This document shows positions 44,112-64,000 of a stretch of 64,000 nucleotides of DNA, in pieces; the first letter of the stretch is position 1, and each line of letters opens with the position of its first letter. The position numbers and the translations under genes were made by a program. The notes beneath the pieces are model-generated. The model did no database searches, had not been told where the DNA came from, and worked only from the letters and a program-made list of their open reading frames with translations. The DNA is taken from the NCBI GenBank assembly GCA_001769385.1, contig MEPB01000006.1:24182-88181 (forward strand), in the 5' to 3' direction. Source of the stretch: Bacteroidetes bacterium RIFCSPLOWO2_12_FULL_35_15 (GTDB lineage: Bacteria > Bacteroidota > Bacteroidia > 2-12-FULL-35-15).

Positions 44112-46259
44112 ATGCGCTACAAACTAGGAATTGATATTGGCGGTACGTTCACAGATCTAATTTTAGTCTCTGATGAAGGAACAACCACCATCCACAAAAC
44201 ACTTTCTACCCCTCTTGATCCCTCTATTGGATTTATTAATGGTATCAGCGAACTGGCTGAAATGATAAAGTTGCCTTTCGGGAAATTTATTAATTCCATT
44301 GATACCATTGTTCATGGAACCACAGTAGCAACTAATGCTTTGCTTACTTTAAGAGGAGCAAAAACAGCACTTGTTACCACCAAAGGTTTTCGTGATGCAT
44401 TGGAAATGAGAAGAGGAATTCGTGAAGAACAATATAATAATCATTATAAAAATGTAACACCGCTTGCGCCTCGCTATTTACGATTTACTATTGATGAACG
44501 TATTGATGCCGAAGGAAAAGTGTTGAATAAATTTGATGAAAAAGAACTTCTCTCCATCATTAAAAAAATAAAAGAAGAAAAGGTAGAGTCTGTTGCCATT
44601 TGTTTTTTGAATTCATTTAAAAATGATATCCATGAACGTAAAGCAGTCAGGTTTTTAAGAAAAGCATTGCCAGGAATCTTTGTAACTGCTTCATTCGAAG
44701 TATTGCCATCCATTCGTTTTTATGAGCGTGTGAGTACAACTGTTGTTAGCGCATTTGTTGGACCGATCGTTGCAAATTATTTTGATAAACTTACACAAAA
44801 GTTAAAAGGCATTGATTTCAAAGGACAATTACTGATCATGCAATCAAACGGTGGAGTGGTAACACCGGATGTTGTGAAGAAAACACCAGCAGTTACTGTT
44901 CTTTCAGGACCTGCAGCAGCACCAACCGCAGGAGCATTTTATTCTGCTTTGTTAGGATATAAAAATTGCATCACGGTGGATATGGGTGGGACGAGCTTTG
45001 ATGCTGCTCTGGTAATTGAAAACCAAAGTGTAACCAGTACCGAAGGAAGTATTAATCGCTATCGCATTGCATTGCCATCATTGGATATTATTACAATTGG
45101 TGCCGGTGGAGGAAGTATTGGCTGGATAGATAGTGGAGGTCTTTTACAAATGGGACCTCAAAGTGCTGGCGCATTGCCTGGTCCGGCTTGTTACGATAGA
45201 GGAGGGGAACTTCCTTCCTGTACAGATGCTGATCTGGTTCTTGGATACCTGAATCCTGATTTTTTTGCGGGAGGGAAATTAAAATTAGATAAAGCAAAAG
45301 CTGTAAAAGCGATCAAAGAGGAACTTGCTGCTAAACTTGGTTTAACGGTTGAAGAAGCTGCCGCAGGAATGTATCGTATCATCAATAGCAACATGGCGCA
45401 AGGTGTTCGTCAGGTTTCAGTAGAGAGAGGTTATGATCCACGCGAATTCTTGTTTATTGTTGCCGGTGGTGCAGGATCCATACATTCTTCTGAAATATGT
45501 AAAGAATTAGAAATCTCCATGTTCCTTGTTCCGAATGTGTCTTCTATTTTTTGTGCAGCAGGGATGTTGCTGGGTGATCTGAAACATGATTATATCCGTT
45601 CGTATTTCACTTCTTTCAATAATATTAATAAAAATAAATTCCTTACACTATTTAATGAAATGAAAGAAGAGGGTATGAAAACATTGATTGAAGAAGGAAT
45701 TAAAAAGAATAAGATCGAGTTTTATCCTGTGTTGGATATGCGTTATCTGGGGCAATATCACGAAGTGCAATTACAAGCTGATTGGAAAGATGTTACCAAC
45801 TTTAAATTGGATAATATTTTTGAAACGTTCCATAAAGAACATAACCGGCAGTTTGGTTATTCCTTGAAAGAGGAAGGAACTGAAATGGAACTTATCAATG
45901 TGAGATTGAGAGTGATCGGACAAAATGAAAAACCAAAATTTTTATCGGGAAATAATAATTCTGTTTCTGCAGAATCTGCGATCAAAGAAAATCGTGATGT
46001 GTATATTCCTGAGTTGAATAAATACAAAAAAATTCCTGTTTATGATGGTGATAAAGCTATATATGGTGCACAAATAAAAGGTCCTTGCATCATTGAAAAA
46101 ATTACCACTTCAATTTTTGTTAGTGAGAATTACGATTGTATTGTAGATAATTTTGGATCGATCATCGTGTATGAAAAGGGAATGATTACAGAGATTTCTA
46201 AGAAGATTTCAACGATTAAATTGAATAAAACAGAAAAAGAATCAGCAATTAAAAATTAA
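44112..46259 (+). CDS. hyuA: Hydantoinase/oxoprolinase family protein, A subunit.
   Basis: N-terminal MRYKLGIDIGGTFTDL; 715 aa. Confidence 0.85.
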   Translation: MRYKLGIDIGGTFTDLILVSDEGTTTIHKTLSTPLDPSIGFINGISELAEMIKLPFGKFINSIDTIVHGTTVATNALLTLRGAKTALVTTKGFRDALEMRRGIREEQYNNHYKNVTPLAPRYLRFTIDERIDAEGKVLNKFDEKELLSIIKKIKEEKVESVAICFLNSFKNDIHERKAVRFLRKALPGIFVTASFEVLPSIRFYERVSTTVVSAFVGPIVANYFDKLTQKLKGIDFKGQLLIMQSNGGVVTPDVVKKTPAVTVLSGPAAAPTAGAFYSALLGYKNCITVDMGGTSFDAALVIENQSVTSTEGSINRYRIALPSLDIITIGAGGGSIGWIDSGGLLQMGPQSAGALPGPACYDRGGELPSCTDADLVLGYLNPDFFAGGKLKLDKAKAVKAIKEELAAKLGLTVEEAAAGMYRIINSNMAQGVRQVSVERGYDPREFLFIVAGGAGSIHSSEICKELEISMFLVPNVSSIFCAAGMLLGDLKHDYIRSYFTSFNNINKNKFLTLFNEMKEEGMKTLIEEGIKKNKIEFYPVLDMRYLGQYHEVQLQADWKDVTNFKLDNIFETFHKEHNRQFGYSLKEEGTEMELINVRLRVIGQNEKPKFLSGNNNSVSAESAIKENRDVYIPELNKYKKIPVYDGDKAIYGAQIKGPCIIEKITTSIFVSENYDCIVDNFGSIIVYEKGMITEISKKISTIKLNKTEKESAIKN

Positions 46260-46649
46260 TGAATAAGGAAGATAGAGATCCATTGACAGAAAAAATTATT
46301 GCTTGTGCCTTTCAAGTGCATAATGAGATTGGCCCAGGCTTTCTTGAAAAAATATATCATAAGGCCATGATTCTTTTTTTTAAAATTGATGGATTAGATG
46401 TTGAAACAGAAAAGTAATTTAATGTGATATTTTAAAATGAAAATGTTGGAAAATTTCGTTGTGATTTGGTTGTGGAAAATAAAGTAAATAGTGGAGTTCA
46501 AAGCAGTATCAGGATATCTTCCTGTTTTGTTTGAGCATCAGGTTCTTTCTTATCTAAAAGCATCAGGAAAAAGTACAGGCTTAATTATAAATTTTGGAAA
46601 TAAAAGTTGTGAAATAAGAAGATTAATATCAAACCAAAAATCGATGTAA
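46259..46649 (+). pseudogene. Frameshifted GxxExxY-family gene remnant.
   Basis: Frame 1 gives MNKEDRDPLTEKIIACAFQVHNEIGPGFLEKIYHKAMI...ETEK*. Other frames downstream encode GKFRCDLVVENKV... and ...SYLKASGKSTGLIINFGNKSCEIRRLISNQ. It is collinear with the intact paralogue at 49026 but is broken by stops and frameshifts. Confidence 0.55.
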
Positions 46650-46679
46650 TCTTTCTTTAATCTTGTAATCTTATTTAAT

Positions 46680-48351: not shown

Positions 48352-48453
48352 ATCTACGAAATACGAATGGGTACGAATATACGAAAACGATAAAATGATG
48401 ATCTACGAAATACGCCCTTCGACAAACTCAGGGTGACTACGAATATACGAATG
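48352..48453. repeat. TACGAAT heptamer repeat array (intergenic).
   Basis: ctacgaaatacgaatgggtacgaatatacgaaaacg...atctacgaaatacg...gactacgaatatacgaatg. Confidence 0.7.
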
Positions 48454-48603
48454 AAAAAAAATAATTTAAATATTGAATGATTTGCGTTAGGGATAGCAGC
48501 GGAAATCCTTTTGAGAGGAACGAGCAAAAGATTGAAGCGAATAGCCCGACCCGCAGGGTAACGCCCAAAATAGAATAATAAGATTATTTAAAAAATTATA
48601 AAT

Positions 48604-49014
48604 ATGCAGCATACCACAATTTTACCGGATGGTTGGCCAACACCAAAAGGATATTCCAATGGAATACTTGCAGCAAAAGGCAGAGTACTTTTTTTAGCTG
48701 GTCAGGTAGGTTGGACCCCTGAAGAAAAATTCGCAAGCGATAAACTGATCCCACAGTTTGAACAAGCATTAAAAAATATTGTTGCTATTGTAAAACAAGC
48801 AGGTGGAAAACCGGAAGATATTTGCAAGATGACTTGTTTCTGCAAAGACAGAGCACAATATTTAGAAAGCAGAAGAGAGTTAGGAGCTATCTGGAAAAAT
48901 ATCATGGGAAAACATTATCCCTGCATGAGTATGATTTTCGTGGTGGATTTGTTGGATCATCCTGCATTAATCGAGATTGAAGCTACAGCAGTTATTCCTA
49001 CTAATAACGAATAA
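48604..49014 (+). CDS. RidA/YjgF/TdcF-family protein.
   Basis: 136 aa, YjgF-like. Its stop codon lies within a TACGAAT-type repeat (aacgaaTAAacgaattacgaATG). Confidence 0.7.
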   Translation: MQHTTILPDGWPTPKGYSNGILAAKGRVLFLAGQVGWTPEEKFASDKLIPQFEQALKNIVAIVKQAGGKPEDICKMTCFCKDRAQYLESRRELGAIWKNIMGKHYPCMSMIFVVDLLDHPALIEIEATAVIPTNNE

Positions 49015-49025
49015 ACGAATTACGA

Positions 49026-49439
49026 ATGAGAGTTGTGTTAAAAAAAGAAAATTTGTTATATCCTGAACTATCTTTTCAGGTTGTAGGAGTTTTATTTGAA
49101 GTAAGTAATACATTAGGATATGGCTATCTGGAAAAATATTATCAAAAAGCAATTGCAGCATTACTTAAAAAATCAAATATAAATTTTAAGGAACAGGTTA
49201 AAGTTGAAGTAATAATTGGAGATGAAATTATAGCAGAAGGTCGTGCGGATTTCATAATTGATGAAAAAATTATTTTGGAAATTAAAAAAGGTGATTCATT
49301 CCGGAAAGATAATATTGATCAATTGCACAGTTATTTAAAAATGACCGGAATGGAGCTTGGCATCCTTGCGAATTTTACATCAAAAGGATTACTTTATAAA
49401 AGAATCGTAAATATTCGTAATTCACAAATTCGTAATTAG
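49026..49439 (+). CDS. GxxExxY-family protein.
   Basis: GYGYLEKYY motif; its C-terminal residues and stop are encoded by the ATTCGTAA repeat. Confidence 0.7.
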   Translation: MRVVLKKENLLYPELSFQVVGVLFEVSNTLGYGYLEKYYQKAIAALLKKSNINFKEQVKVEVIIGDEIIAEGRADFIIDEKIILEIKKGDSFRKDNIDQLHSYLKMTGMELGILANFTSKGLLYKRIVNIRNSQIRN

Positions 49440-49546
49440 TAGAACGATGGACTTAAATATTCGTAATTAGTAAATTCGTAATTAGTAGAACGATGGACTT
49501 AAATATTCGTAATTAGTAAATTCGTAATTAGTAGAACGATGGACTT
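49409..49546 (+). repeat. 3 x 46-bp tandem repeat built from ATTCGTAATTAGTA units. Each copy ends in ...agaacgATGGACTT, and the third copy supplies the start codon of the acyl-CoA dehydrogenase.
   Basis: Copies at 49409-49454, 49455-49500 and 49501-49546. Copies 2 and 3 are identical and copy 1 differs at 3 positions. Copies 1 and 2 encode only the mini-ORF MDLNIRN*. Confidence 0.8.
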
Positions 49547-50669
49547 TGAATTAAACGAAATACAAAAACAAATTCAACAAACTTTTCGAGACTTTACCGA
49601 TAGGAGAGTAAAACCTGTTGCTGGTAAATTAGATGAAGAAAAAAAGTTTCCTCACCAGCTTTTTAAAGAAGCCGGGGATCTGGGATTTTTTGGGATGCGT
49701 TATCCTGAAAGTGCAGGAGGAAGCGGATTGGATATTGTTTCCTACTCATTAGCTGTAATTGAAATGGCAAGAGGATCCTTGTCGCTGGCTGCTGTTTGTA
49801 CCATGCAATCATTAATGGGAACCTACTTTCTTTATCGTTTTGGTAATAAAGAGATCATTGAAAATTATTTTGATGAAGCCCTGAAAGGTAATAAAATTGG
49901 TGGTATTTGCATGACGGAGCCTAATGCAGGTTCCGATTTAATGGCAATTAAAACACTTGCAAAAGTTACTGATGATGGCTTTATTCTTAGCGGACAAAAG
50001 ACCTGGATCACATCAGCTCCGGTTGCTGATTTTTTTACGGTGCTTGCACGAACCGATAATCATGAAAAACTCTCCATATTTTTTGTGCCTGCTGATTTGA
50101 AAGGAGTGATTGTTGGAAAAAGTATTGAGAAAATGGGTGTGCGAGCTTCCGTAACCAGTGAAGTAGCTTTTGTTGATGTTCAGCTCCCGAAAAAATATTT
50201 GCTTGGCGAAATTGGTGGAGGAACAAAATGCCTTATTGAAATTCTTGCCGAGATCCGGATCATGACCGCTGCTCTTGCTATCGGAGTTGCAACAGCAGCT
50301 TATGAAGATGCTTTGAAATATGCCAATGAGCGTTCACAATTTGGAAAACCAATTGGGAAATTTCAGGCTGTACAAATGAAATTTGCGGACATGGCAGTGA
50401 AACTGGAAACATCCAAACATTATGTGATGTATGCAGCAAGCTTAAGTGATAAAAATCTCCCGCGTCAGAAAGAAGCAATGATAGCAAAGCTCTATGCTTC
50501 GGAATGTGCAGTAAATATATGTGATGAAGCATCCCGTGTACTTGCTTCTTATGGTTACGCAGTTGAATATAATGTAGAAAGGTATTTACGGGATTCTCGT
50601 TTTACGTTGATTGGTGGGGGAACCTCAGAAATATTAAAAATAAATATTGCAAAAGAATTAGGACTATGA
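49539..50669 (+). CDS. Acyl-CoA dehydrogenase.
   Basis: ACAD fold motifs: CMTEPNAGSDL, a C-terminal RYLRDSRFTLIGGGTSEI, and catalytic Glu context. Confidence 0.85.
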   Translation: MDFELNEIQKQIQQTFRDFTDRRVKPVAGKLDEEKKFPHQLFKEAGDLGFFGMRYPESAGGSGLDIVSYSLAVIEMARGSLSLAAVCTMQSLMGTYFLYRFGNKEIIENYFDEALKGNKIGGICMTEPNAGSDLMAIKTLAKVTDDGFILSGQKTWITSAPVADFFTVLARTDNHEKLSIFFVPADLKGVIVGKSIEKMGVRASVTSEVAFVDVQLPKKYLLGEIGGGTKCLIEILAEIRIMTAALAIGVATAAYEDALKYANERSQFGKPIGKFQAVQMKFADMAVKLETSKHYVMYAASLSDKNLPRQKEAMIAKLYASECAVNICDEASRVLASYGYAVEYNVERYLRDSRFTLIGGGTSEILKINIAKELGL

Positions 50670-50675
50670 GAAGTT

Positions 50676-50826
50676 CTACGAATTACGAATTAAACGAATT
50701 ACGAATGAGATTTTCCAATTTATCAGATGTTTACGTTAGTATTTCATCTTTATTCGTAATTCGGCCATTCGTAATTAGTAGTGTAATATATTCACTTTTA
50801 TTTGCAGTTTGTTCATTCGTAATAAA
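50676..50826. repeat. TACGAAT/ATTCGTA inverted heptamer array (intergenic).
   Basis: ctacgaattacgaattaaacgaattacgaatgag ... ttattcgtaattcggccattcgtaattagt ... cattcgtaata. Confidence 0.7.
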
Positions 50827-50837
50827 TAGGTAAAAAT

Positions 50838-52238
50838 ATGAGTAATATAAAATCATACGGAATCGCATTACCTCATTTCAGAATCGAGGATACTATTCTT
50901 CACCCCAAAGGAAAGAAAGGCATAACAAAGTCAGTTTGTTTTTCTGATGAAGATTTGATCACACTTGCTTTTCAGGCAGCATCAAACTGTTTGGATGTCA
51001 GTTCGAGCGGAGTCGAGAACTCAAATCTCAAATCTAATATTGATGCAATTCTCTTTGCCTCATCAACTCCGGTTTTTAAAAATCGGTATCATGCTTCTTT
51101 TCTTGCTGATCAATTAGGTTTACTTCATGGCATTTTAGCGCTTGATCTTATAAATTCAGCCCGAAGTGGAACGGATGCCCTGTTATTGGCAAATACATTA
51201 ATTGATTTCGGTAAATACAAAAATATTTTGGTGCTTGCTTCTGATGTTCATTTTCCTTCAATCGGAAAAGAGCTTTCAACTCCCTTCGGTCATGCTGCCT
51301 GTGCAATTTTGATAGGTAATGAAAAAGGTATTGCAGAATTTACTTCAGCCAAATCATACAGTTCTTCACTGGCTGAAGAATTTTCTTACAAAGGAAATAC
51401 TATTCAGTATGATCCTCGATTTAGCCGTGATGCAGGATTTAAAGCAAACCTGACTTCTGCACTTAAAAGTTTTGCGTCTAACCCAAAATCGATTGATGCT
51501 GTAATTTTAAATTCTCTTTATGCTCGAATGGCAGGAGGGATTTTTGCGAAAGCTGGTTTTGAAGAAACACAATTTGCAATGGACACCCTTTCTTCCAAAC
51601 TAGGAAATACAGGTGCTGTTCATGCGTTACTGCTGTTAGTGAATGAAATTGAAAACGAAAAGAAAACCATCTTACTTGCAGATTACACAAACGGAACAAA
51701 CTTTTTTGAAATAAAAAATCAAGGTTCCAATTCTGAAAAAGTACTGCAAGAGCAATTGAAAAATTTCGAATTAATTAATTCTTATCAGGATTATTTATTG
51801 TTGCGCAAAACAGGAAATTTCAATTCAGCAAAATACGAAACCAAAGAAATGTTTTCTTCTGAAATGATGCAGGAACGTGAGAAAGACACCTTGCAATATC
51901 TGAAAGGTTTGAAATGCGATAAGTGCGGAACCATTTATTATCTGAAATCTACTCGATGTAAAAATTGTAAAGAAGAAAATTTTTCAGATGTTCAATTATC
52001 AAAAACTGGAATTGTTTATACCTTAACAAGCGAACATTATTTTCCAAGTTCATTCCCTCCAATTCATATGTTGGTAATTGATCTGGATGGTGGGGGAAGG
52101 GTTACAGTTCAACAAACTGATACCATGTATCCTGAAAAAAATAAAATAAAGATCGGTTCGAAAGTGAAATTGGTTTTACGAAAAATGATTGAGAATGATA
52201 TGAAACCAAATTATTTCTGGAAGGCTGTAAATCTATGA
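50838..52238 (+). CDS. HMG-CoA-synthase-like (thiolase-fold) protein fused to a C-terminal DUF35-type Zn-ribbon/OB-fold domain.
   Basis: N-terminal SYGIALPHFRIEDT and a C-terminal zinc ribbon CDKCGTIYYLKSTRCKNCKEE. Confidence 0.5.
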   Translation: MSNIKSYGIALPHFRIEDTILHPKGKKGITKSVCFSDEDLITLAFQAASNCLDVSSSGVENSNLKSNIDAILFASSTPVFKNRYHASFLADQLGLLHGILALDLINSARSGTDALLLANTLIDFGKYKNILVLASDVHFPSIGKELSTPFGHAACAILIGNEKGIAEFTSAKSYSSSLAEEFSYKGNTIQYDPRFSRDAGFKANLTSALKSFASNPKSIDAVILNSLYARMAGGIFAKAGFEETQFAMDTLSSKLGNTGAVHALLLLVNEIENEKKTILLADYTNGTNFFEIKNQGSNSEKVLQEQLKNFELINSYQDYLLLRKTGNFNSAKYETKEMFSSEMMQEREKDTLQYLKGLKCDKCGTIYYLKSTRCKNCKEENFSDVQLSKTGIVYTLTSEHYFPSSFPPIHMLVIDLDGGGRVTVQQTDTMYPEKNKIKIGSKVKLVLRKMIENDMKPNYFWKAVNL

Positions 52239-52240
52239 AA

Positions 52241-52297
52241 TACGAATTGATACGAATAGAATCTACGAATACGAATTAGTACGAATATACGAATAGA
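52241..52297. repeat. TACGAAT heptamer array (intergenic).
   Basis: aaatacgaattgatacgaatagaatctacgaatacgaattagtacgaatatacgaatag. Confidence 0.7.
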
Positions 52298-52333
52298 TGA
52301 AATTAAGAATGTAAAATTCACAATTAAGAATTA

Positions 52334-53506
52334 ATGAAAGATATAGCAATAATAGGCATTGGAGTAACAAAGTTCGGTGAATTGTTTCATCAGAGTTATG
52401 ACGACTTGGTGCGTGATGCCGCGATGCAAGCTGTGAACGATGCTCAGATCAATATGGATGAAATTGGGGCTGCATGGCTTTCAACTGCATTCCCTGAAAT
52501 AGGTGTTTTTAAAGGTAGAAGCGGAATGGATCTGTCTGAGCCACTTTCTTTGTATAATATTCCTGTAACAAGGGTTTCAAATTTTTGTGCCTCAGGCGCA
52601 GATGCTATACGCAATGCCGTGAATGCATTACGTGCAGGAGAATGTGATGTAGCGATGGCATTGGGAGTGGAGAAGCTTCGTGATCGCCAACCGCAGGATA
52701 GTATTGTAAAAATGATGGTTGAATACGGACATCCGTTTTTACAAAAAGGATTTACAGCTGCCGGTACATTTGCTGTATATGCAAACCGGATGATGAAAGA
52801 ATTTGGTGTAACCCGTGAAGATATTTCAAACGTTTCGGTGAAAAATCATTTTCATGGTTCATTAAATGAAAAAGCATTCTATCGTAAACCATGCACACTT
52901 GAAGAAGTAATGAGATCACAAATGGTTGCTGATCCTCTTACCGTTTTGGATAGCTGCCCGACCACTGATGGTGCAGCTTGTGTGATAATTGTGCGTGCGG
53001 AAGATGTGAATAAAAATAAACACAAGCCTGTTTTTATTAAAGGTGTTGGACTTTCTGTTTCAACAGGATGGGATCTTCCTTTCTTCGATCCCAATCATGA
53101 TTTTCTTTCTTTTGAAGCCACACGCAATGCAGCAAAAATGGCTTATAAACAAGCAGGTATTACAAATCCAATTGAAGAACTGGATTTGGTGGAAGTACAT
53201 GATTGTTTTTCAATAGTCGAATTATTAACTTATGAAGATCTCGGATTATGCAAACAAGGGGAAGCAAAAGATCTGATACGAGGAAAAGAAACACAACTCG
53301 GAGGGAAAATTCCTGTGAATGTGAGTGGTGGACTTTTATCTTGTGGACATCCGGTTGGTGCAACAGGAATAAGAATGGTGGTTGAAGTTTCCAATCACTT
53401 GCGCAATTCTGCAGGTGAACGACAAGTGAAAAAAGCAAAAAGAGGATTAACACATAATATTGGAGGTCCAGGTGCTATTGCATCGGTGATCATTCTGGAA
53501 AATTAA
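52334..53506 (+). CDS. Thiolase, SCP-x/non-specific lipid-transfer type.
   Basis: Active-site region NFCASGADAIRNAV and C-terminal GGLLSCGHPVGATG. Confidence 0.75.
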   Translation: MKDIAIIGIGVTKFGELFHQSYDDLVRDAAMQAVNDAQINMDEIGAAWLSTAFPEIGVFKGRSGMDLSEPLSLYNIPVTRVSNFCASGADAIRNAVNALRAGECDVAMALGVEKLRDRQPQDSIVKMMVEYGHPFLQKGFTAAGTFAVYANRMMKEFGVTREDISNVSVKNHFHGSLNEKAFYRKPCTLEEVMRSQMVADPLTVLDSCPTTDGAACVIIVRAEDVNKNKHKPVFIKGVGLSVSTGWDLPFFDPNHDFLSFEATRNAAKMAYKQAGITNPIEELDLVEVHDCFSIVELLTYEDLGLCKQGEAKDLIRGKETQLGGKIPVNVSGGLLSCGHPVGATGIRMVVEVSNHLRNSAGERQVKKAKRGLTHNIGGPGAIASVIILEN

Positions 53507-53509
53507 ATT

Positions 53510-53630
53510 TTACGAAAATACGAATGAATACTAATCTCCGAATAAAGTAAAATGCAAAATCCGAAATTAAAAATTGGATTAATTCGATTCATAAATTCGT
53601 ACAATTGGTATTTCGTAAAGCAAACTAAAT
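53510..53630. repeat. TACGAAA/TACGAAT and ATTCGTA/TTTCGTA heptamer array (intergenic).
   Basis: ttacgaaaatacgaatgaatac...aattcgattcataaattcgtacaattggtatttcgtaaag. Confidence 0.65.
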
Positions 53631-55643: not shown

Positions 55644-55714
55644 ACTGTTGCGGAATATGAATAAAGAAAAAAAAACATTTTGCGTCTTTGCGCCTTAGTG
55701 GCAAAAAATAATAA

Positions 55715-56947: not shown

Positions 56948-57052
56948 TAAAATTTGATATGTAAACCCCTGTCAGGGTTTCAAACCCTGACAGGGGTATT
57001 ATTGCTTGGTTTAAGATGTATGTGATAATCAACAATTCTAATTTCCCAATAA

Positions 57053-60415: not shown

Positions 60416-60459
60416 AATATGATTCGGTGAAATGAATAAAATTATTTATGTTTAGTAGG

Positions 60460-60545
60460 GCTTTGCGTTTTCTTTGCGATTTTTTTTCTTTGCGAACTTT
60501 GCGAGAAATAGGTCACGCAAAGAACACAAAGATTTTCGCAAAGTA
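60460..60545. repeat. CTTTGCG/CGCAAAG heptamer array forming a nested palindrome.
   Basis: gctttgcgttttctttgcgattttttttctttgcgaactttgcgagaaataggtcacgcaaagaacacaaagattttcgcaaag. Confidence 0.6.
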
Positions 60546-60595
60546 TTAAGAACGCATGAACTGGAATAAAGGTTTTAATATTTAGATAACAGTGG

Positions 60596-61226: not shown

Positions 61227-61307
61227 AATATTCGACCCCGAAGGGGGCGCATGTTAATAGCAAAATAAGATATTTCTATAAATATTAGACCCCGAAGGGG
61301 TCGAATA
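61227..61307 (+). terminator. Pair of related GC-core hairpins (REP-like; probable terminator after iorB).
   Basis: aatattCGACCCCgaaGGGGGCG and aatattaGACCCCgaaGGGGTCgaata. The 5' half of the first is complementary to the 3' half of the second. Confidence 0.45.
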
Positions 61308-61898: not shown

Positions 61899-64000
61899 AT
61901 GAGTAAAAAATTAAATGTAATTGGAACACCAATACCGAAGATAGATGCAGGTATTCGTATCACGGGAAAAGCGGTTTATGGTCAGGATGTAAAACTACCG
62001 GGAATGCTTCATGGTGCTATTCTTCGTGCTGAGTATCCATGCGCGGAATTTACAATTGATGTTTCTGCTGCAAGAAAATTGCCCGGAGTTATTGCTGTTA
62101 TTACAGCGGATGATATTGATTGCAATAACATTAGCTATAAAAAGGATCATCCGATATTAAAAAAAGGAGAAGTAAATTGTATTCGTGATGAAATAGCAGC
62201 TGTTGCCGCTGAAAGTAAAGAGATCGCTGAAAGAGCCATTAAACTTATCAAAGTAAAGTACAAAGAAAAGAAAGGGATTTATGATCCTTTCGATGCATTA
62301 AAGCCTAATGCTCCTCTTGTAAATAAATATTTGAAGGATAGTAAATTCGCGAAAAACATTTCTGATATTTTCTTCTACGAACATGGAAATCTGGAAGAAC
62401 AAAAAAAGAAAAGCGCTGTTATTATCAGCAAACGTTTCGTATTACCTCGCGTAACACATTGTTGTATGGCAACAAGCAACATCACCGCTGATTATTCCTC
62501 TGTCACCAAACGCTTAACATTATATAGTTCAACACAAGTTCCGTTTTTATATCAACGCGACATGGCACATGCTTTGAAAATGAATGCCTCCGATATTCGT
62601 GTTATTCAAGTGGTGATCGGTGGCGGATTTGGAAGTAAATTAGATATGTATCCTTTTGAACCAATTGCTGCTATTCTTTCTATAAAAACAGGAAAGCCTG
62701 TTCAGATAATTTTTGACCGTGAAGAGGAATTTATTGCTTCACCTACGAGGCAGAATATGGTGATTGACTTAATAGCAGGGGCTGATAAAAATGGGAAATT
62801 CACTTTTCGTGATGTTACTATTGTAAAAGATAATGGTGCATTCACTTCCTGGGGCGCAACCACTCCTTTTGTAATGATGCAGACTTTTTCATCACTCTAT
62901 CAAATGCCTGCTTGTCGGTTTGAATCAAAAGCCGTTTATACAAATAATATTTCAGCAGGTTCTTTCCGTGGTTATGGGAATCCACAAGCTGCTTTCGCTA
63001 TCGAAAGTTGTATTGATCTGATGGCCGATAAATTAGGAATGGATAAAGCAGAAATTCGTTTGCTTAATGCAAATTATGCAGGTGAAATAACAGGACAAGG
63101 AATGCACTACGACACTTGCGGACATATAGAAGCCTTGAAAACCGTTATTGAAAAATCGGATTTACGAAATACAAATAAAGAAACTTTACGAAATACTAAT
63201 AAATACGAATCTACGAATAAAGAAAAAGAAACAGTCAACACAGATTCGTATATTCGAAAAAATCCGTATTTCGTAGATAATGTAGATAGATATAAGCGGG
63301 GAGTGGGAATTGCTTCGATGATGCATGTTGGGGGTGGTGCTAAAATTTATCGATCAGATGGTTGCGGAACTACCTTAAAATTGGATGATTACGGACATCT
63401 GACTTTAATTACAGGCTCGAGCGAGATCGGTCAGGGCTCCGAAACTGTTTTGGCAATGATGGCTTCAGAGGAACTTACAATTCCAATGAATAAAATAAAA
63501 GTTATTAATACGGATACGGATGTAAAGCCTTGGGATGTTGGGGTGCATGCATCCCGTACCAGTTTTGTAGCAGGGAATTCGGTGTTAGGTGCTGTTAAAA
63601 AATTAAAAGAAAAATTAAATCAAAAAGCTGCTGTACTTTTAAAATGTACGATTGAGAATTTGATCTATGAAAATGAAGAAATAAAAAATAGTGACGGAAG
63701 TAATTCTGTTCGAATAGAAAAAGTGGTTCGTGAAATGCATTTTGGAGGACAAAATGAGCTGTGTACGGTAAACCATTTTTATGAACCAACAAGTGATTTT
63801 CAGGATAAACAGTTCAAAGGAAATGTTTCAGGTACTTATGCATTTGCTGCGCAGTCAGCTGAAGTGGAAGTGGATACCTATACCGGAAATATTAAGGTAT
63901 TAAATATTCATGTTGCACAAGATGTGGGTAAAGTATTGAATCCACTAAACATCATGGGACAAATTGAAGGAGGTGTTTTGACTGGAGTGGGTTATGGAAT
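61899..64000 (+). CDS. Molybdopterin-binding large subunit of a xanthine dehydrogenase/aldehyde oxidase-family enzyme (3' end beyond the window). It contains an in-frame TACGAAT-repeat insertion.
   Basis: The product begins MSKKLNVIGTPIPKIDAGIRITGKAVYGQDVKLPGMLHGAILRAEYP. Typical MoCo-enzyme segments: RGYGNPQA, GSSEIGQG and VHASRTSFVAG. There is no stop through 64000. Confidence 0.85.
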   Translation, partial: MSKKLNVIGTPIPKIDAGIRITGKAVYGQDVKLPGMLHGAILRAEYPCAEFTIDVSAARKLPGVIAVITADDIDCNNISYKKDHPILKKGEVNCIRDEIAAVAAESKEIAERAIKLIKVKYKEKKGIYDPFDALKPNAPLVNKYLKDSKFAKNISDIFFYEHGNLEEQKKKSAVIISKRFVLPRVTHCCMATSNITADYSSVTKRLTLYSSTQVPFLYQRDMAHALKMNASDIRVIQVVIGGGFGSKLDMYPFEPIAAILSIKTGKPVQIIFDREEEFIASPTRQNMVIDLIAGADKNGKFTFRDVTIVKDNGAFTSWGATTPFVMMQTFSSLYQMPACRFESKAVYTNNISAGSFRGYGNPQAAFAIESCIDLMADKLGMDKAEIRLLNANYAGEITGQGMHYDTCGHIEALKTVIEKSDLRNTNKETLRNTNKYESTNKEKETVNTDSYIRKNPYFVDNVDRYKRGVGIASMMHVGGGAKIYRSDGCGTTLKLDDYGHLTLITGSSEIGQGSETVLAMMASEELTIPMNKIKVINTDTDVKPWDVGVHASRTSFVAGNSVLGAVKKLKEKLNQKAAVLLKCTIENLIYENEEIKNSDGSNSVRIEKVVREMHFGGQNELCTVNHFYEPTSDFQDKQFKGNVSGTYAFAAQSAEVEVDTYTGNIKVLNIHVAQDVGKVLNPLNIMGQIEGGVLTGVGYG
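63162..63275 (+). repeat. Intragenic TACGAAT/ATTCGTA heptamer array, in frame.
   Basis: gatttacgaaatacaaataaagaaactttacgaaatactaataaatacgaatctacgaataaag...cagattcgtatattcgaaaaaatccgtatttcgtag. It translates in the gene frame as ...SDLRNTNKETLRNTNKYESTNKEKETVNTDSYIRKNPYFVDNV... Confidence 0.7.

What the first reader, a model, noticed from the sequence alone, without database searches (positions are those of the whole stretch)
48352..53630. TACGAAT/ATTCGTA heptamer arrays fill nearly every intergenic gap of the catabolic operon
Six consecutive intergenic regions contain 4-10 direct and/or inverted copies of TACGAAT (occasionally TACGAAA): 48352-48453, 49007-49030, 49409-49546, 50676-50826, 52241-52297 and 53510-53630. 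They are spaced irregularly by 1-6 nt, for example tacgaattacgaattaaacgaattacgaatg. Several arrays switch orientation midway, forming large imperfect palindromes. The phage region and the T9SS locus have none. Possible explanations are binding-site arrays for one regulator coordinating the operon, a proliferating miniature repeat or satellite, or RNA-level elements in a polycistronic transcript.
Basis: seen in the sequence. Interest (0 to 1): 0.65.

Follow-up and report, generated by a model that had tools for sequence, protein, structure and literature searches.

The report
Mobile nuclease-cassette repeats colonising an operon
The TACGAAT arrays are the inverted end-repeats, shrunken copies and leftovers of a small selfish DNA cassette carrying a GxxExxY nuclease gene; the cassette has wedged itself between the genes of this operon, and the arrays are not binding sites for an operon regulator.

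Summary
TACGAAT occurs 38 times against about 9 expected. Of 30 relaxed units lying at gene junctions, 28 fall in six consecutive junctions out of 63.

The arrays are insertions. Orthologous operons at about 80% protein identity have overlapping or abutting stop/start junctions and no arrays.

The gene at 49026-49439 encodes a GxxExxY (TIGR04256, PDDEXK_3) nuclease with a RecB/Cas4-like fold. It lies between 30-nt inverted arms, each made of four units of about 7 nt (CTACGAATTACGAAT-N4-CGAATTACGAAT). Cassettes with the same arms and 65-86% identical proteins sit in unrelated places in other metagenomes. One lies between atpG and atpD of a 54%-GC Planctomycetota genome, where the cassette itself is 35% GC.

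More distant GxxExxY genes carry arms built from other units, such as TACTAAT, TACAAAT and ACGCAGA. The hairpin at 50676-50781 is an internally deleted copy of the cassette. Another hairpin, 63185-63277, is a 93-nt in-frame insert in a molybdenum hydroxylase gene.

The best reading is a mobile element resembling MITEs or REPIN elements that rides inside operons. That the nuclease itself moves the element is inferred, not shown. I found no published description of it.

The parts
48354..48452 (+). Solo direct array of 7 TACGAA[AT] units with no inverted partner. It contains a nested 23-nt insert, cccttcgacaaactcagggtgac, at 48415-48437.
   Evidence: It is unstructured as RNA (z +0.9). The same composite occurs again about 7 kb past the window end, on the other strand.
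48998..49027 (+). Left 30-nt inverted arm of the cassette (CTACTAATAACGAATAAACGAATTACGAAT). It supplies the last codons and the stop of the RidA-like gene, and its final T begins the ATG of the nuclease gene (49026-49028).
   Evidence: Inverted repeats I1-I3. Orthologs end ..IPE*, whereas the window ends ..IPTNNE*.
49026..49439 (+). GxxExxY nuclease gene (137 aa), the cargo of the cassette. Its last codons and its stop lie in the right arm.
   Evidence: Pfam PDDEXK_3, 4e-28. NCBIfam TIGR04256, 1e-28. Model pLDDT 92, with Cas4 SSO0001 and lambda exonuclease as top folds. D75, K87, Q99 and Y103 are invariant and E85 nearly so.
49408..49546 (+). Right inverted arm, present as three tandem 46-nt units (arms at 49413-49442, 49459-49488 and 49505-49534). 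Each unit also contains aacgATGGACT, which is the host flank and the start of the acyl-CoA dehydrogenase gene.
   Evidence: TRF period 46, 3.0 copies, 96% matches. A second assembly of the same sequence has 2 copies.
50676..50781 (+). Gene-less hairpin E1, an internally deleted copy of the cassette. It has a left arm (50676-50706), then ATGAGA (the first codons of the nuclease gene), then a right arm (50752-50781).
   Evidence: The left end matches the cassette at 34/38 and the right end at 27/31. RNA fold z -5.0.
50791..50838 (+). Degenerate second copy of the E1 right-arm region, ending at the start codon of the next gene.
   Evidence: Direct-repeat family D1, 71% to 50743-50790.
52241..52294 (+). 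Solo direct array of 6 exact TACGAAT. It includes a left-arm-like stretch, CTACGAATACGAATTAGTACGAATATACGAAT.
   Evidence: It is unstructured (z +0.75).
52300..52334 (+). Older, decayed array of TAAGAAT-type units, shared with the 86% ortholog L005.
53508..53620 (+). Hairpin E2, with termini TTTACGAAAATACGAAT ... ATTCGTACAATTGGTATTTCGTAAAG.
   Evidence: The fold is weak (z -1.5). L005 has an element with the same termini at another junction.
63185..63277 (+). Hairpin E3, 93 nt (31 codons), inserted in frame in the linker between the two molybdopterin-binding domains of the Mo-hydroxylase large subunit. The left terminus is partly duplicated at 63162-63184.
   Evidence: The ORF is continuous. 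A Pfam domain gap spans aa 391-464. There is a 31-residue insert relative to 10 homologs and relative to 1rm6_A. Fold z -3.4.
46259..46672 (+). Degraded second GxxExxY cassette of another lineage. It has a 52-aa N-terminal remnant (46259-46417), frame-broken remains, and then three TAATCTT-like units at 46647-46672.
   Evidence: TIGR04256, 2e-11. Sequence. Orthologs have a 4-28-nt gap at this junction.

Best explanation
**What it is.** The arrays belong to a family of very small mobile cassettes of about 0.47 kb. A full copy consists of:
- a left arm of about 30 nt made of four units of about 7 nt (CTACGAATTACGAAT-N4-CGAATTACGAAT);
- a 130-140-aa GxxExxY nuclease gene, whose start abuts the left arm and whose last codons and stop lie in the right arm;
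- the same arm inverted.

In this lineage one such cassette entered the RidA/acyl-CoA-dehydrogenase junction of a formerly tightly packed operon. Related material then filled five neighbouring junctions and one protein linker. That material comprises an internally deleted hairpin copy, two further hairpins with a variant terminus, and solo arms.

**How it lives in the host.** The cassette is co-oriented with the host genes, so it is probably transcribed as part of the operon. The left arm read in the sense direction has no stop codon in any frame. A perfect right arm has TAA in all three frames and ends 4-9 nt before the next gene's ATG, so host reading frames stay separate and downstream translation can restart.

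**What is shown.** The architecture, the insertional origin, presence in unrelated loci and phyla, the deletion derivative, the in-frame insert, and the change of arm unit across nuclease lineages.

**What is inferred.** That the GxxExxY nuclease recognises or cuts its own arms (or the empty sites) and so drives spread, and that the gene-less hairpins move using a nuclease supplied by another copy, as REPIN elements (pairs of inverted REP repeats) use their RAYT transposase. My confidence in this nuclease-driver step alone is about 0.4.
For: **Enrichment and clustering.**

**Insertional origin.**
- Orthologous operons (L002, L003, L004, L007; about 80% protein identity) have ATGA overlaps or zero-nt gaps and no arrays.
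- The 86% ortholog L005 has a hairpin at one junction.

**Arms.**
- The window gene is flanked by 30-nt inverted arms.
- I compared 35 non-redundant metagenome loci encoding relatives, pairing each upstream flank with every downstream flank. The locus's own downstream flank was the best inverted match in 17 loci and among the top four in 27 (median score 29, against 17 for other pairings).
- Arms match at 30/30 in L129 and L543, 34/35 in L137 and 28/30 in L134. The short central spacer differs between cassettes but matches between the two arms of each one.

**Same cassette, different neighbours.** Relatives at 65-86% identity carry the same arms in different gene contexts: L129, L134, L137 and atpG/atpD in L543. 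In L543 the cassette is 35% GC against 54% for the host.

**The unit changes with the protein lineage.** Examples are TACAAAT, TACTAAT, ACGCAGA and GCGAAT. The window's second, degraded paralog has TAATCTT.

**Deletion derivative.** E1 matches the cassette ends, including ATGAGA.

**In-frame insertions.** A 93-nt hairpin in the Mo-hydroxylase gene and a whole cassette in frame inside recG.

**Polarity and orientation.**
- In 120 genome loci, pairs reading '+ then -' outnumber '- then +' by 23 to 4 (p = 3e-4).
- Cassettes share the strand of their neighbours: 28 to 2 upstream and 25 to 5 downstream.

**Nuclease.** The model is confident and the RecB-family motifs are intact.

**Published note on the family.** PDDEXK_3 is listed as of unknown function with multiple transfers between divisions (PMC3424549).
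Against: - No target-site duplication borders the arms in six independent insertions. The ATGAG and ATGAA kept on both sides of two inserts could simply reflect selection for a stop and a start codon.
- In 120 genome loci found through the array itself, 126 of 180 arrays are solo, and none has a recognisable relative of the window nuclease within 8 kb.
- The only recurrent neighbouring gene family is a different protein: the four-helix-bundle 23S_rRNA_IVP protein, flanked by perfect TACGAAT arms. The arms are therefore not exclusive to the nuclease, and it may be cargo.
- The window's own arms match at only 26/30, so this copy may be decaying.
- Nothing explains why six neighbouring junctions of one operon were hit while 46 junctions upstream were not.
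- No activity, excision or presence/absence polymorphism was observed. The only variation seen was 2 versus 3 copies of the 46-nt unit between assemblies, which could be an assembly artefact.
Confidence: 0.7

Rival explanations
1. The arms are the ends of an element moved by an enzyme encoded elsewhere, or by a host process. The GxxExxY nuclease and the four-helix-bundle protein are only passengers that benefit from being carried.
For: - Two unrelated cargo families share TACGAAT arms of four units.
- Most arrays in genomes are gene-less.
- No GxxExxY relative lies within 8 kb of 120 arrays.
Against: - No transposase, integrase or reverse transcriptase recurs among 127 neighbours of arrays.
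- The nuclease ORF is physically interwoven with both arms, and the arm-encoded C-terminus (..NIxN) is conserved in the protein alignment.
- The arm unit changes along with the nuclease lineage, even between two paralogs in one genome.
Confidence: 0.2
2. The arrays are heptamer satellites that arise and grow in place by replication slippage, like cyanobacterial STRR (short tandemly repeated repetitive) sequences. Small genes merely land in them or are retained there.
For: - Perfect tandem runs of up to 12 units exist in Nostocales (L098).
- The 46-nt unit varies between 2 and 3 copies.
- Orthologs carry another heptamer hairpin, GTTTAGG/CCTAAAC, at one junction.
- Heptamer repeats are reported in Beggiatoaceae, Cyanobacteria, Bacteroidetes and Geobacter (PMC4679880, PMC2700814).
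Against: - Slippage does not produce matched inverted arms, with identical spacers, on both sides of a gene.
- It does not give the 23:4 polarity of pairs.
- It does not explain the same AT-rich unit in hosts of 60-68% GC, or a 35%-GC cassette in a 54%-GC genome.
- The window arrays are irregularly spaced rather than perfect tandems.
Confidence: 0.07
3. The arrays are functional RNA elements of the polycistronic transcript, kept for the operon's benefit. They could be processing sites for a double-strand RNase, stabilisers, or spacers that uncouple translation.
For: - Three elements fold into long hairpins far beyond shuffled controls (z -5.0, -4.5, -3.4).
- Matched changes in the two arms keep them complementary.
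- Known relatives of the idea: 23S rRNA intervening sequences and Neisseria Correia elements are cut by RNase III (my own knowledge, not checked here).
Against: - Absent from orthologous operons, which work with overlapping genes.
- Two of the six arrays have no structure.
- Solo arrays show no strand bias relative to genes.
- No terminator-like or promoter-like excess.
- The same elements occur in unrelated operons and inside proteins.
Confidence: 0.08
4. The arrays are binding sites for one transcription factor that coordinates the catabolic operon.
For: The only support is the clustering of arrays in one operon.
Against: - Not conserved in four orthologous operons.
- Positioned after stop codons and inside a coding gene, not at promoters.
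- The same arrays occur outside the operon and in unrelated operons of other phyla.
Confidence: 0.03

Closest known systems
REP / REPIN elements and their RAYT transposases (Bertels and Rainey 2011, PMC3116915)
   Same: - Short extragenic repeats occur as singlets and as inverted doublets that form hairpins.
- The protein gene is itself flanked by its own repeats in inverted orientation.
- Different protein lineages go with different repeat sequences.
- There is no target-site duplication.
- The outer end of the arm is CTAC/GTAG, which resembles the conserved GTAG of REPs (the REP feature is from my own knowledge).
   Different: - The enzyme here has a PD-(D/E)XK RecB/Cas4-like fold, not an IS200/IS605-type HUH tyrosine transposase.
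- Each arm is a direct array of four heptamer-like units, not itself a palindrome.
- The gene is tiny, and its coding sequence runs into the arm.
- Elements sit inside operons, co-oriented with them, and sometimes in frame inside genes.
MITEs (miniature inverted-repeat transposable elements) of bacteria, for example Neisseria Correia elements and cyanobacterial Nezha (my own knowledge)
   Same: - Gene-less copies of 90-110 nt with terminal inverted repeats.
- They are co-transcribed with neighbouring genes.
- One copy (E1) is demonstrably an internal deletion of a longer gene-carrying element with the same ends.
   Different: - No target-site duplication was found.
- The longer partner encodes a 137-aa nuclease, not a recognised transposase.
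- The central parts of the hairpins are unrelated to each other, so they are not copies of one master.
Intervening-sequence elements of 23S rRNA genes carrying a four-helix-bundle ORF (PF05635/TIGR02436; Leptospira and others; my own knowledge)
   Same: A small ORF lies between inverted repeats, inserted into a highly conserved, highly expressed gene without destroying it. In L114, L034 and L044 a member of exactly this protein family lies between perfect TACGAAT arms.
   Different: The window cassette carries a nuclease, not this protein, and it lies between protein genes rather than in rRNA. Heptamer arms have not, to my knowledge, been described for these elements.
TAACTGA heptamer direct repeats of Beggiatoaceae, Cyanobacteria and Bacteroidetes (MacGregor 2015, PMC4679880)
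   Same: - Intergenic heptamer arrays of 2-6 units, some 'split' by a related 7-mer.
- They abut gene ends, including in ribosomal protein operons.
- The distribution across phyla is patchy, suggesting horizontal transfer by an unknown mechanism.
   Different: - The unit is different.
- TAACTGA sets are almost all direct and in one orientation just upstream of start codons, and a translational role was proposed for them.
- TACGAAT arrays show no strand bias, favour the 3' side of genes, form inverted pairs and flank genes.
STRR (short tandemly repeated repetitive) heptanucleotide sequences of heterocystous cyanobacteria (Mazel et al. 1990; my own knowledge), and the 'four tandem heptanucleotide repeats' of Geobacter metallireducens (PMC2700814)
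   Same: The 7-nt unit, the intergenic and occasional intragenic location, and the block size of four to five units. Many TACGAAT hits are in Nostocales.
   Different: The units differ. Association with inverted pairing around a nuclease gene has not been reported for them.
Rickettsia palindromic elements (Ogata et al. 2000; my own knowledge)
   Same: A palindromic repeat inserted in frame into protein-coding genes, adding a peptide segment in a tolerant region. Here that is E3 in the Mo-hydroxylase linker.
   Different: The sequence and hosts are unrelated. RPEs have no known gene-carrying partner.
Free-standing homing endonuclease genes (reviewed for T4-like phages in PMC2988022)
   Same: A small nuclease gene is wedged between conserved genes, absent from the same site in relatives, and compositionally foreign.
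   Different: Homing genes lack inverted arms and do not spawn gene-less copies. Homing also returns the gene to the same locus, whereas this cassette is found at many different loci.

Membership tests
MITE (miniature inverted-repeat transposable element) | Terminal inverted repeats on a short non-coding element | tested here: met
   E1 50676-50781, E2 53508-53620 and E3 63185-63277.
MITE (miniature inverted-repeat transposable element) | Target-site duplication flanking the element | tested here: not met
   No direct repeat borders the arms in the window cassette, E1, L129, L134, L137 or L543. ATGAG and ATGAA occur on both sides of two inserts, but at a distance from the arms.
MITE (miniature inverted-repeat transposable element) | Derivation from a longer element with the same ends that encodes the mobilising enzyme | tested here: inconclusive
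   E1 is an internal deletion of the GxxExxY cassette. Whether the nuclease mobilises anything cannot be tested here.
REP/REPIN-RAYT system | Protein gene flanked by its own repeats in inverted orientation, with repeat type matched to protein lineage | tested here: met
REP/REPIN-RAYT system | The protein is an IS200/IS605-like HUH (Y1) transposase | tested here: not met
   Pfam PDDEXK_3, TIGR04256 and a RecB/Cas4-like fold.
REP/REPIN-RAYT system | Each repeat unit is itself an imperfect palindrome | tested here: not met
   The arms are direct arrays of heptamer-like units. Solo arrays do not fold (z +0.9 and +0.75).
Transcription-factor binding-site array of the operon | Conservation of the sites in orthologous operons | tested here: not met
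   Absent from L002, L003, L004 and L007.
Cyanobacterial STRR / simple heptamer satellite | Perfect head-to-tail tandem heptamers | tested here: not met
   Window arrays are spaced irregularly, at 7-16 nt start to start. In other genomes, 98 of 120 loci do show strict period 7.
TAACTGA-type heptamer repeats (MacGregor 2015) | One orientation, ending just upstream of start codons | tested here: not met
   Next to stop codons, 33 arrays are sense and 29 antisense; next to starts, 13 and 17. Arrays are twice as often beside stops.
23S rRNA intervening-sequence element | Four-helix-bundle ORF (PF05635) between inverted repeats, inserted in an rRNA gene | tested here: not met
   The window ORF is PDDEXK_3, and the window has no rRNA. 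Related loci L114, L034 and L044 do have a PF05635 gene between TACGAAT arms, but between protein genes.
Homing endonuclease gene | Nuclease cleaves the intact (empty) version of its own insertion site | not testable with these tools
   Empty sites are known from orthologs. A cleavage assay is needed.
GxxExxY protein family (TIGR04256 / PF13366) | Score above the curated cut-offs, with the GxxExxY motif and the D..ExK catalytic motif | tested here: met
   100.1 bits against a cut-off of 35, and 98.5 bits against 22. The sequence shows GYLEKYY and D75/E85/K87.

The most novel reading that the evidence does not exclude
GxxExxY proteins (PF13366/TIGR04256, function so far unknown) are the enzymes of an undescribed class of minimal mobile elements. 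Each is a cassette of about 0.47 kb whose 28-35-nt inverted arms are built from about four heptamer-like units specific to each nuclease lineage. The cassettes insert precisely between genes, or in frame within them, in housekeeping operons across Bacteroidota, candidate-phyla-radiation (CPR) bacteria, Planctomycetota and others. They ride on host transcription and shed hairpin and solo-arm derivatives. On this reading they would be a PD-(D/E)XK counterpart of the RAYT/REPIN system, and a source of the unexplained intergenic heptamer arrays reported in several phyla.
Probability: 0.35. Interest if true: 0.8.

Novelty: new variant of a known kind. Interest (0 to 1): 0.6.

Why it matters
- **A role for two orphan families.** It gives a concrete, testable role to a large protein family with no known function (GxxExxY/PDDEXK_3), and possibly to the related puzzle of four-helix-bundle 'intervening sequence' genes.
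- **A source for heptamer arrays.** It offers a source for intergenic heptamer arrays that have been reported repeatedly (STRR, TAACTGA, Geobacter) without a mechanism.
- **Operons can absorb selfish DNA.** It shows that translationally coupled operons can take in selfish DNA at almost every junction, and even inside proteins, without losing reading frames.
- **Annotation.** The arms extend or replace gene ends (the RidA C-terminus here) and add peptide inserts (31 aa in the Mo-hydroxylase; a whole nuclease domain inside RecG in other organisms). These could be misread as functional domains or as regulatory sites.

Tried and rejected
- **Control heptamers in viral contigs.** I scanned for TACGAAT x3 against the same-composition controls TAGCAAT and TGACAAT, to ask whether TACGAAT is special. 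Most viral matches were tandem repeats of period 9, 12 or 15, multiples of three that are most likely coding. The comparison is uninformative. Whether TACGAAT is more common than other heptamers across collections therefore remains untested.
- **Strand bias.** My first impression was that arrays are sense-oriented after stop codons. A count over 120 loci rejected this.
- **Search for a linked enzyme.** I scanned neighbours of arrays for a linked transposase, reverse transcriptase or integrase. Nothing recurred among 59 small and 68 larger neighbours except three four-helix-bundle genes.
- **Relatives of the window nuclease near arrays.** A tblastn of the window nuclease against the 120 array loci found none.
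- **Flavo-1 RNA as a regular partner.** The window has a Flavo-1 match, but none appears in 20 related loci.
- **Promoter and terminator scan.** No excess, and none in the arrays.
- **Link to reverse transcriptases.** One paper mentions GxxExxY near a reverse transcriptase, but the mention is incidental.
- **Literature.** No held paper contains the tandem TACGAATTACGAAT. Elhai et al. 2008, on small dispersed repeats in Nostoc, could not be read.
- **Two look-ups gave no DNA.** These were the closest ortholog P0002, and P0243 from the Rifle aquifer genome.

Full report
**1. The observation**

TACGAAT or its complement occurs 38 times in the 64-kb window. Shuffles give 9.0 +/- 3.0, and none of 100 shuffles reached 38. 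On a rough gene map of 64 ORFs and 63 junctions, 28 of the 30 relaxed units (TACGAA[AT]) at junctions lie in six consecutive junctions between 48351 and 53640. No other junction has more than one.

Three things were missed:
- Two of the 'intergenic arrays' (49007-49030 and 49409-49546) are the two sides of one gene.
- A further array lies inside a coding gene at 63160-63290.
- A composite array identical to 48403-48452 lies about 7 kb past the window end, between unrelated genes.

**2. Surroundings**

The operon encodes hydantoinase A and B, a RidA-like protein, an acyl-CoA dehydrogenase, a thiolase-like/OB-fold protein, a thiolase, a B12-dependent mutase, a CoA transferase, a 2-oxoacid:ferredoxin oxidoreductase and a molybdenum hydroxylase. 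The closest solved relative of the hydroxylase is 4-hydroxybenzoyl-CoA reductase alpha.

The window matches a groundwater-type metagenome contig of an uncultured Bacteroidota organism. A 99% identical copy of the nuclease comes from 'Bacteroidetes bacterium RIFCSPLOWO2_12_FULL_35_15'.

**3. The arrays are insertions**

Orthologs of the 466-aa protein were traced to their contigs. In four operons at about 80% protein identity (L002, L003, L004, L007) the same genes follow each other with ATGA overlaps or zero-nt gaps. There is no TACGAAT array and no extra gene. The window has gaps of 95-524 nt at those junctions.

| Junction | Orthologs | Window |
|---|---|---|
| acyl-CoA dehydrogenase > 466-aa gene | ggactATGAgtt | ggactATGAG-[insert]-ATGAGtaat |
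| 466-aa gene > thiolase | ATGAA overlap, single | ATGAA on both sides of the insert |

The RidA-like protein ends ..IPE* in orthologs and ..IPTNNE* here, because the left arm now supplies its last codons and its stop. An 86% ortholog (L005) has a hairpin of the same kind at one junction, so the invasion began after the split from the 80% group.

**4. The gene between two arrays**

The gene at 49026-49439 encodes a 137-aa GxxExxY protein: Pfam PDDEXK_3 at 4e-28 and TIGR04256 at 1e-28. A model built on 49 homologs has pLDDT 92. Its best structural matches are the Cas4 protein SSO0001 and lambda exonuclease. D75, K87, Q99 and Y103 are invariant and E85 nearly so, which are the RecB-family nuclease motifs.

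The gene lies between 30-nt inverted arms at 48998-49027 and 49413-49442, 87% complementary. The right arm, together with 12 nt of host flank that includes the dehydrogenase start codon, is repeated three times as a 46-nt unit. Another assembly of the same sequence has two copies.

**5. The cassette is a unit found elsewhere**

A metagenome scan with this protein gave 53 loci, and nearly all are flanked by inverted arrays.
- Relatives at 65-86% identity have TACGAAT arms of the form CTACGAATTACGAAT-N3-5-CGAATTACGAAT.
- L130-L133 sit at the same RidA/dehydrogenase site as the window.
- L129, L134 and L137 sit next to other genes.
- In a Planctomycetota genome (L543) a 75% identical copy with perfect 30/30 arms lies between atpG and atpD. 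It ends 4 nt before the atpD start and has 35% GC in a 54% GC context.

In 35 non-redundant loci I paired each upstream flank with every downstream flank. A locus's own downstream flank is the best inverted partner in 17 loci and in the top four in 27. The short spacer inside the arm differs between cassettes (TTTC, AGG, CAG, AAAAA) but is the same in both arms of each one.

More distant relatives have arms made of other units: TACAAAT, TACTAAT, TACGAAC, ACGCAGA, ACACAGAT and GCGAAT. The window's second, degraded GxxExxY gene (46259-46417) is followed by TAATCTT units.

Cassettes are co-oriented with their neighbours, 28 to 2 upstream and 25 to 5 downstream. No target-site duplication borders the arms.

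**6. Derivatives in the window**

- **E1 (50676-50781).** It matches the cassette's left end at 34/38, including the first codons ATGAGA, and its right end at 27/31. It is therefore an internal deletion. It folds at -37 kcal/mol, z -5.0.
- **E2 (53508-53620), E3 (63185-63277) and the L005 element.** They share a variant terminus, TTTACGAAATAC...GTATTTCGTAAA, close to the arm of the 65% relative L137.
- **E3.** It is exactly 93 nt, lies in frame, and adds 31 residues to a variable linker of the Mo-hydroxylase relative to ten homologs.
- **The arrays at 48354-48452 and 52241-52294.** They are direct only and unstructured. I read them as solo arms.

In tandem form, (TACGAAT)n has no stop codon in any frame, while its complement has TAA in all three. 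This follows directly from the sequence.

**7. The same unit in other organisms**

The hits span Cyanobacteria, Bacteroidota, Ignavibacteria, Acidobacteriota, Chloroflexota, CPR bacteria, Planctomycetota and others, with host GC from 25 to 68%.
- 98 loci show strict 7-nt periodicity.
- Of 180 arrays, 126 are solo.
- Inverted pairs read '+ then -' 23 times and '- then +' 4 times (p = 3e-4).
- Interiors are mostly 11-140 nt. Two of about 390-470 nt hold a four-helix-bundle gene (PF05635/TIGR02436) between perfect arms.
- Other neighbours are unrelated housekeeping genes. No transposase-like family recurs.
- Solo arrays show no strand bias relative to genes. They lie twice as often beside stop codons as beside start codons, typically 1-8 nt away.

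**8. Interpretation**

The evidence fits a small mobile cassette whose inverted arms are the arrays, together with its deleted and solo derivatives. It does not fit regulator sites. An RNA role can be at most secondary.

Whether the nuclease drives movement is inferred from three things: the flanking by matched arms, the change of arm unit with nuclease lineage, and the analogy with RAYT/REPIN. Three things weigh against it: a non-nuclease gene shares the same arms, most arrays have no nuclease gene nearby, and there is no target-site duplication.

Why the arm is built of about four 7-nt units, why both arms stay identical at variable positions, and why one operon collected so many copies all remain unexplained.

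**9. Comparison with the literature**

| Source | What it reports |
|---|---|
| PMC3424549 | PDDEXK_3 listed as of unknown function with multiple inter-division transfers |
| Held library | Three papers mention GxxExxY; the one I read does so only in passing, and a second is a virus genome report |
| PMC4679880 (MacGregor 2015) | Intergenic heptamer arrays shared by Cyanobacteria and Bacteroidetes, unit TAACTGA, with no mechanism |
| PMC2700814 | 'Four tandem heptanucleotide repeats' at 49 sites in Geobacter metallireducens |

I found no description of nuclease cassettes with heptamer arms. My search covers only the held library, and one relevant paper (Elhai et al. 2008) could not be read.

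**10. Verdict**

It is a mobile-element phenomenon rather than operon regulation. It is a new variant of a known kind (MITE- or REPIN-like elements) with an unusual enzyme and arm design. Interest is moderate to high for people who work on mobile DNA and genome annotation.

Noticed in passing
window 48479-48555 (+): A match to the Rfam Flavo-1 RNA motif (RF01705, 51.8 bits against a gathering score of 42) lies directly after the first TACGAAT array. It is another lineage-specific filler of the hydB>ridA gap. It is absent from the orthologous gaps and from 20 related loci.
   Followed up: partly
window 60450-60550 and 55670-55700: A second heptamer family, CTTTGCG/CGCAAAG, builds the same kind of direct-then-inverted palindrome (RNA fold z -3.4) in another junction of the operon. 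A short copy lies in the mutase>CoA-transferase gap.
   Followed up: partly
window 56960-56995 and 61240-61305: GC-rich perfect hairpins (acccctgtcagggtttcaaaccctgacaggggt, and paired gaccccgaagggg motifs) fill two further junctions. These are different small repeats from the heptamer arrays.
   Followed up: no
L002 8402-8471, L004 8402-8472, L007 785-854: The orthologous operons that lack TACGAAT carry a different heptamer hairpin, (GTTTAGG)n ... (CCTAAAC)n, in the hydB>ridA gap. Its unit is the same as the plant telomere repeat.
   Followed up: no
L164 1615-4248 (also L158, L169, L170, L171, L175): In probable CPR bacteria, a GxxExxY domain together with its ACGCAGA-type arms is inserted in frame inside recG, between the DEQHRFGV and MTATPIPRT helicase motifs. 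In L164 the result is one continuous 877-aa ORF.
   Followed up: partly
window 49408-49546 versus L001 9916-10008: The 46-nt unit (right arm plus host flank with the dehydrogenase start codon) is present three times in the window and twice in another assembly that otherwise shows 4 mismatches in about 21 kb, in the stretch that starts inside the repeat. This is either real copy-number variation or collapse during assembly.
   Followed up: partly
window 48403-48452 (+) and L541 19826-19875 (-), which corresponds to window 71173-71222: The same composite, TACGAAA-tacgcccttcgacaaactcagggtgac-(T/A)ACGAAT, occurs twice. A 23-nt element therefore seems to be nested in TACGAAT arrays.
   Followed up: partly
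L543 3926-4391: A cassette with perfect 30/30 arms lies between atpG and atpD of a Planctomycetota genome (GCA_040753835.1). It has 35% GC in a 54% GC context.
   Followed up: yes
L446 5120-5267, L478, L438, L454 (viral contigs): The heptamer TGACAAT, chosen as a control, also occurs as period-7 arrays and as inverted pairs in some viral contigs. It may be another natural arm unit.
   Followed up: no
L541 13876-13945 and 14883-15026, which correspond to window 65223-65292 and 66230-66373: Just past the window end, two further junctions hold a CTGTGT/CCGTGT array and a degenerate TACTAAT/TACGAAT hairpin.
   Followed up: no
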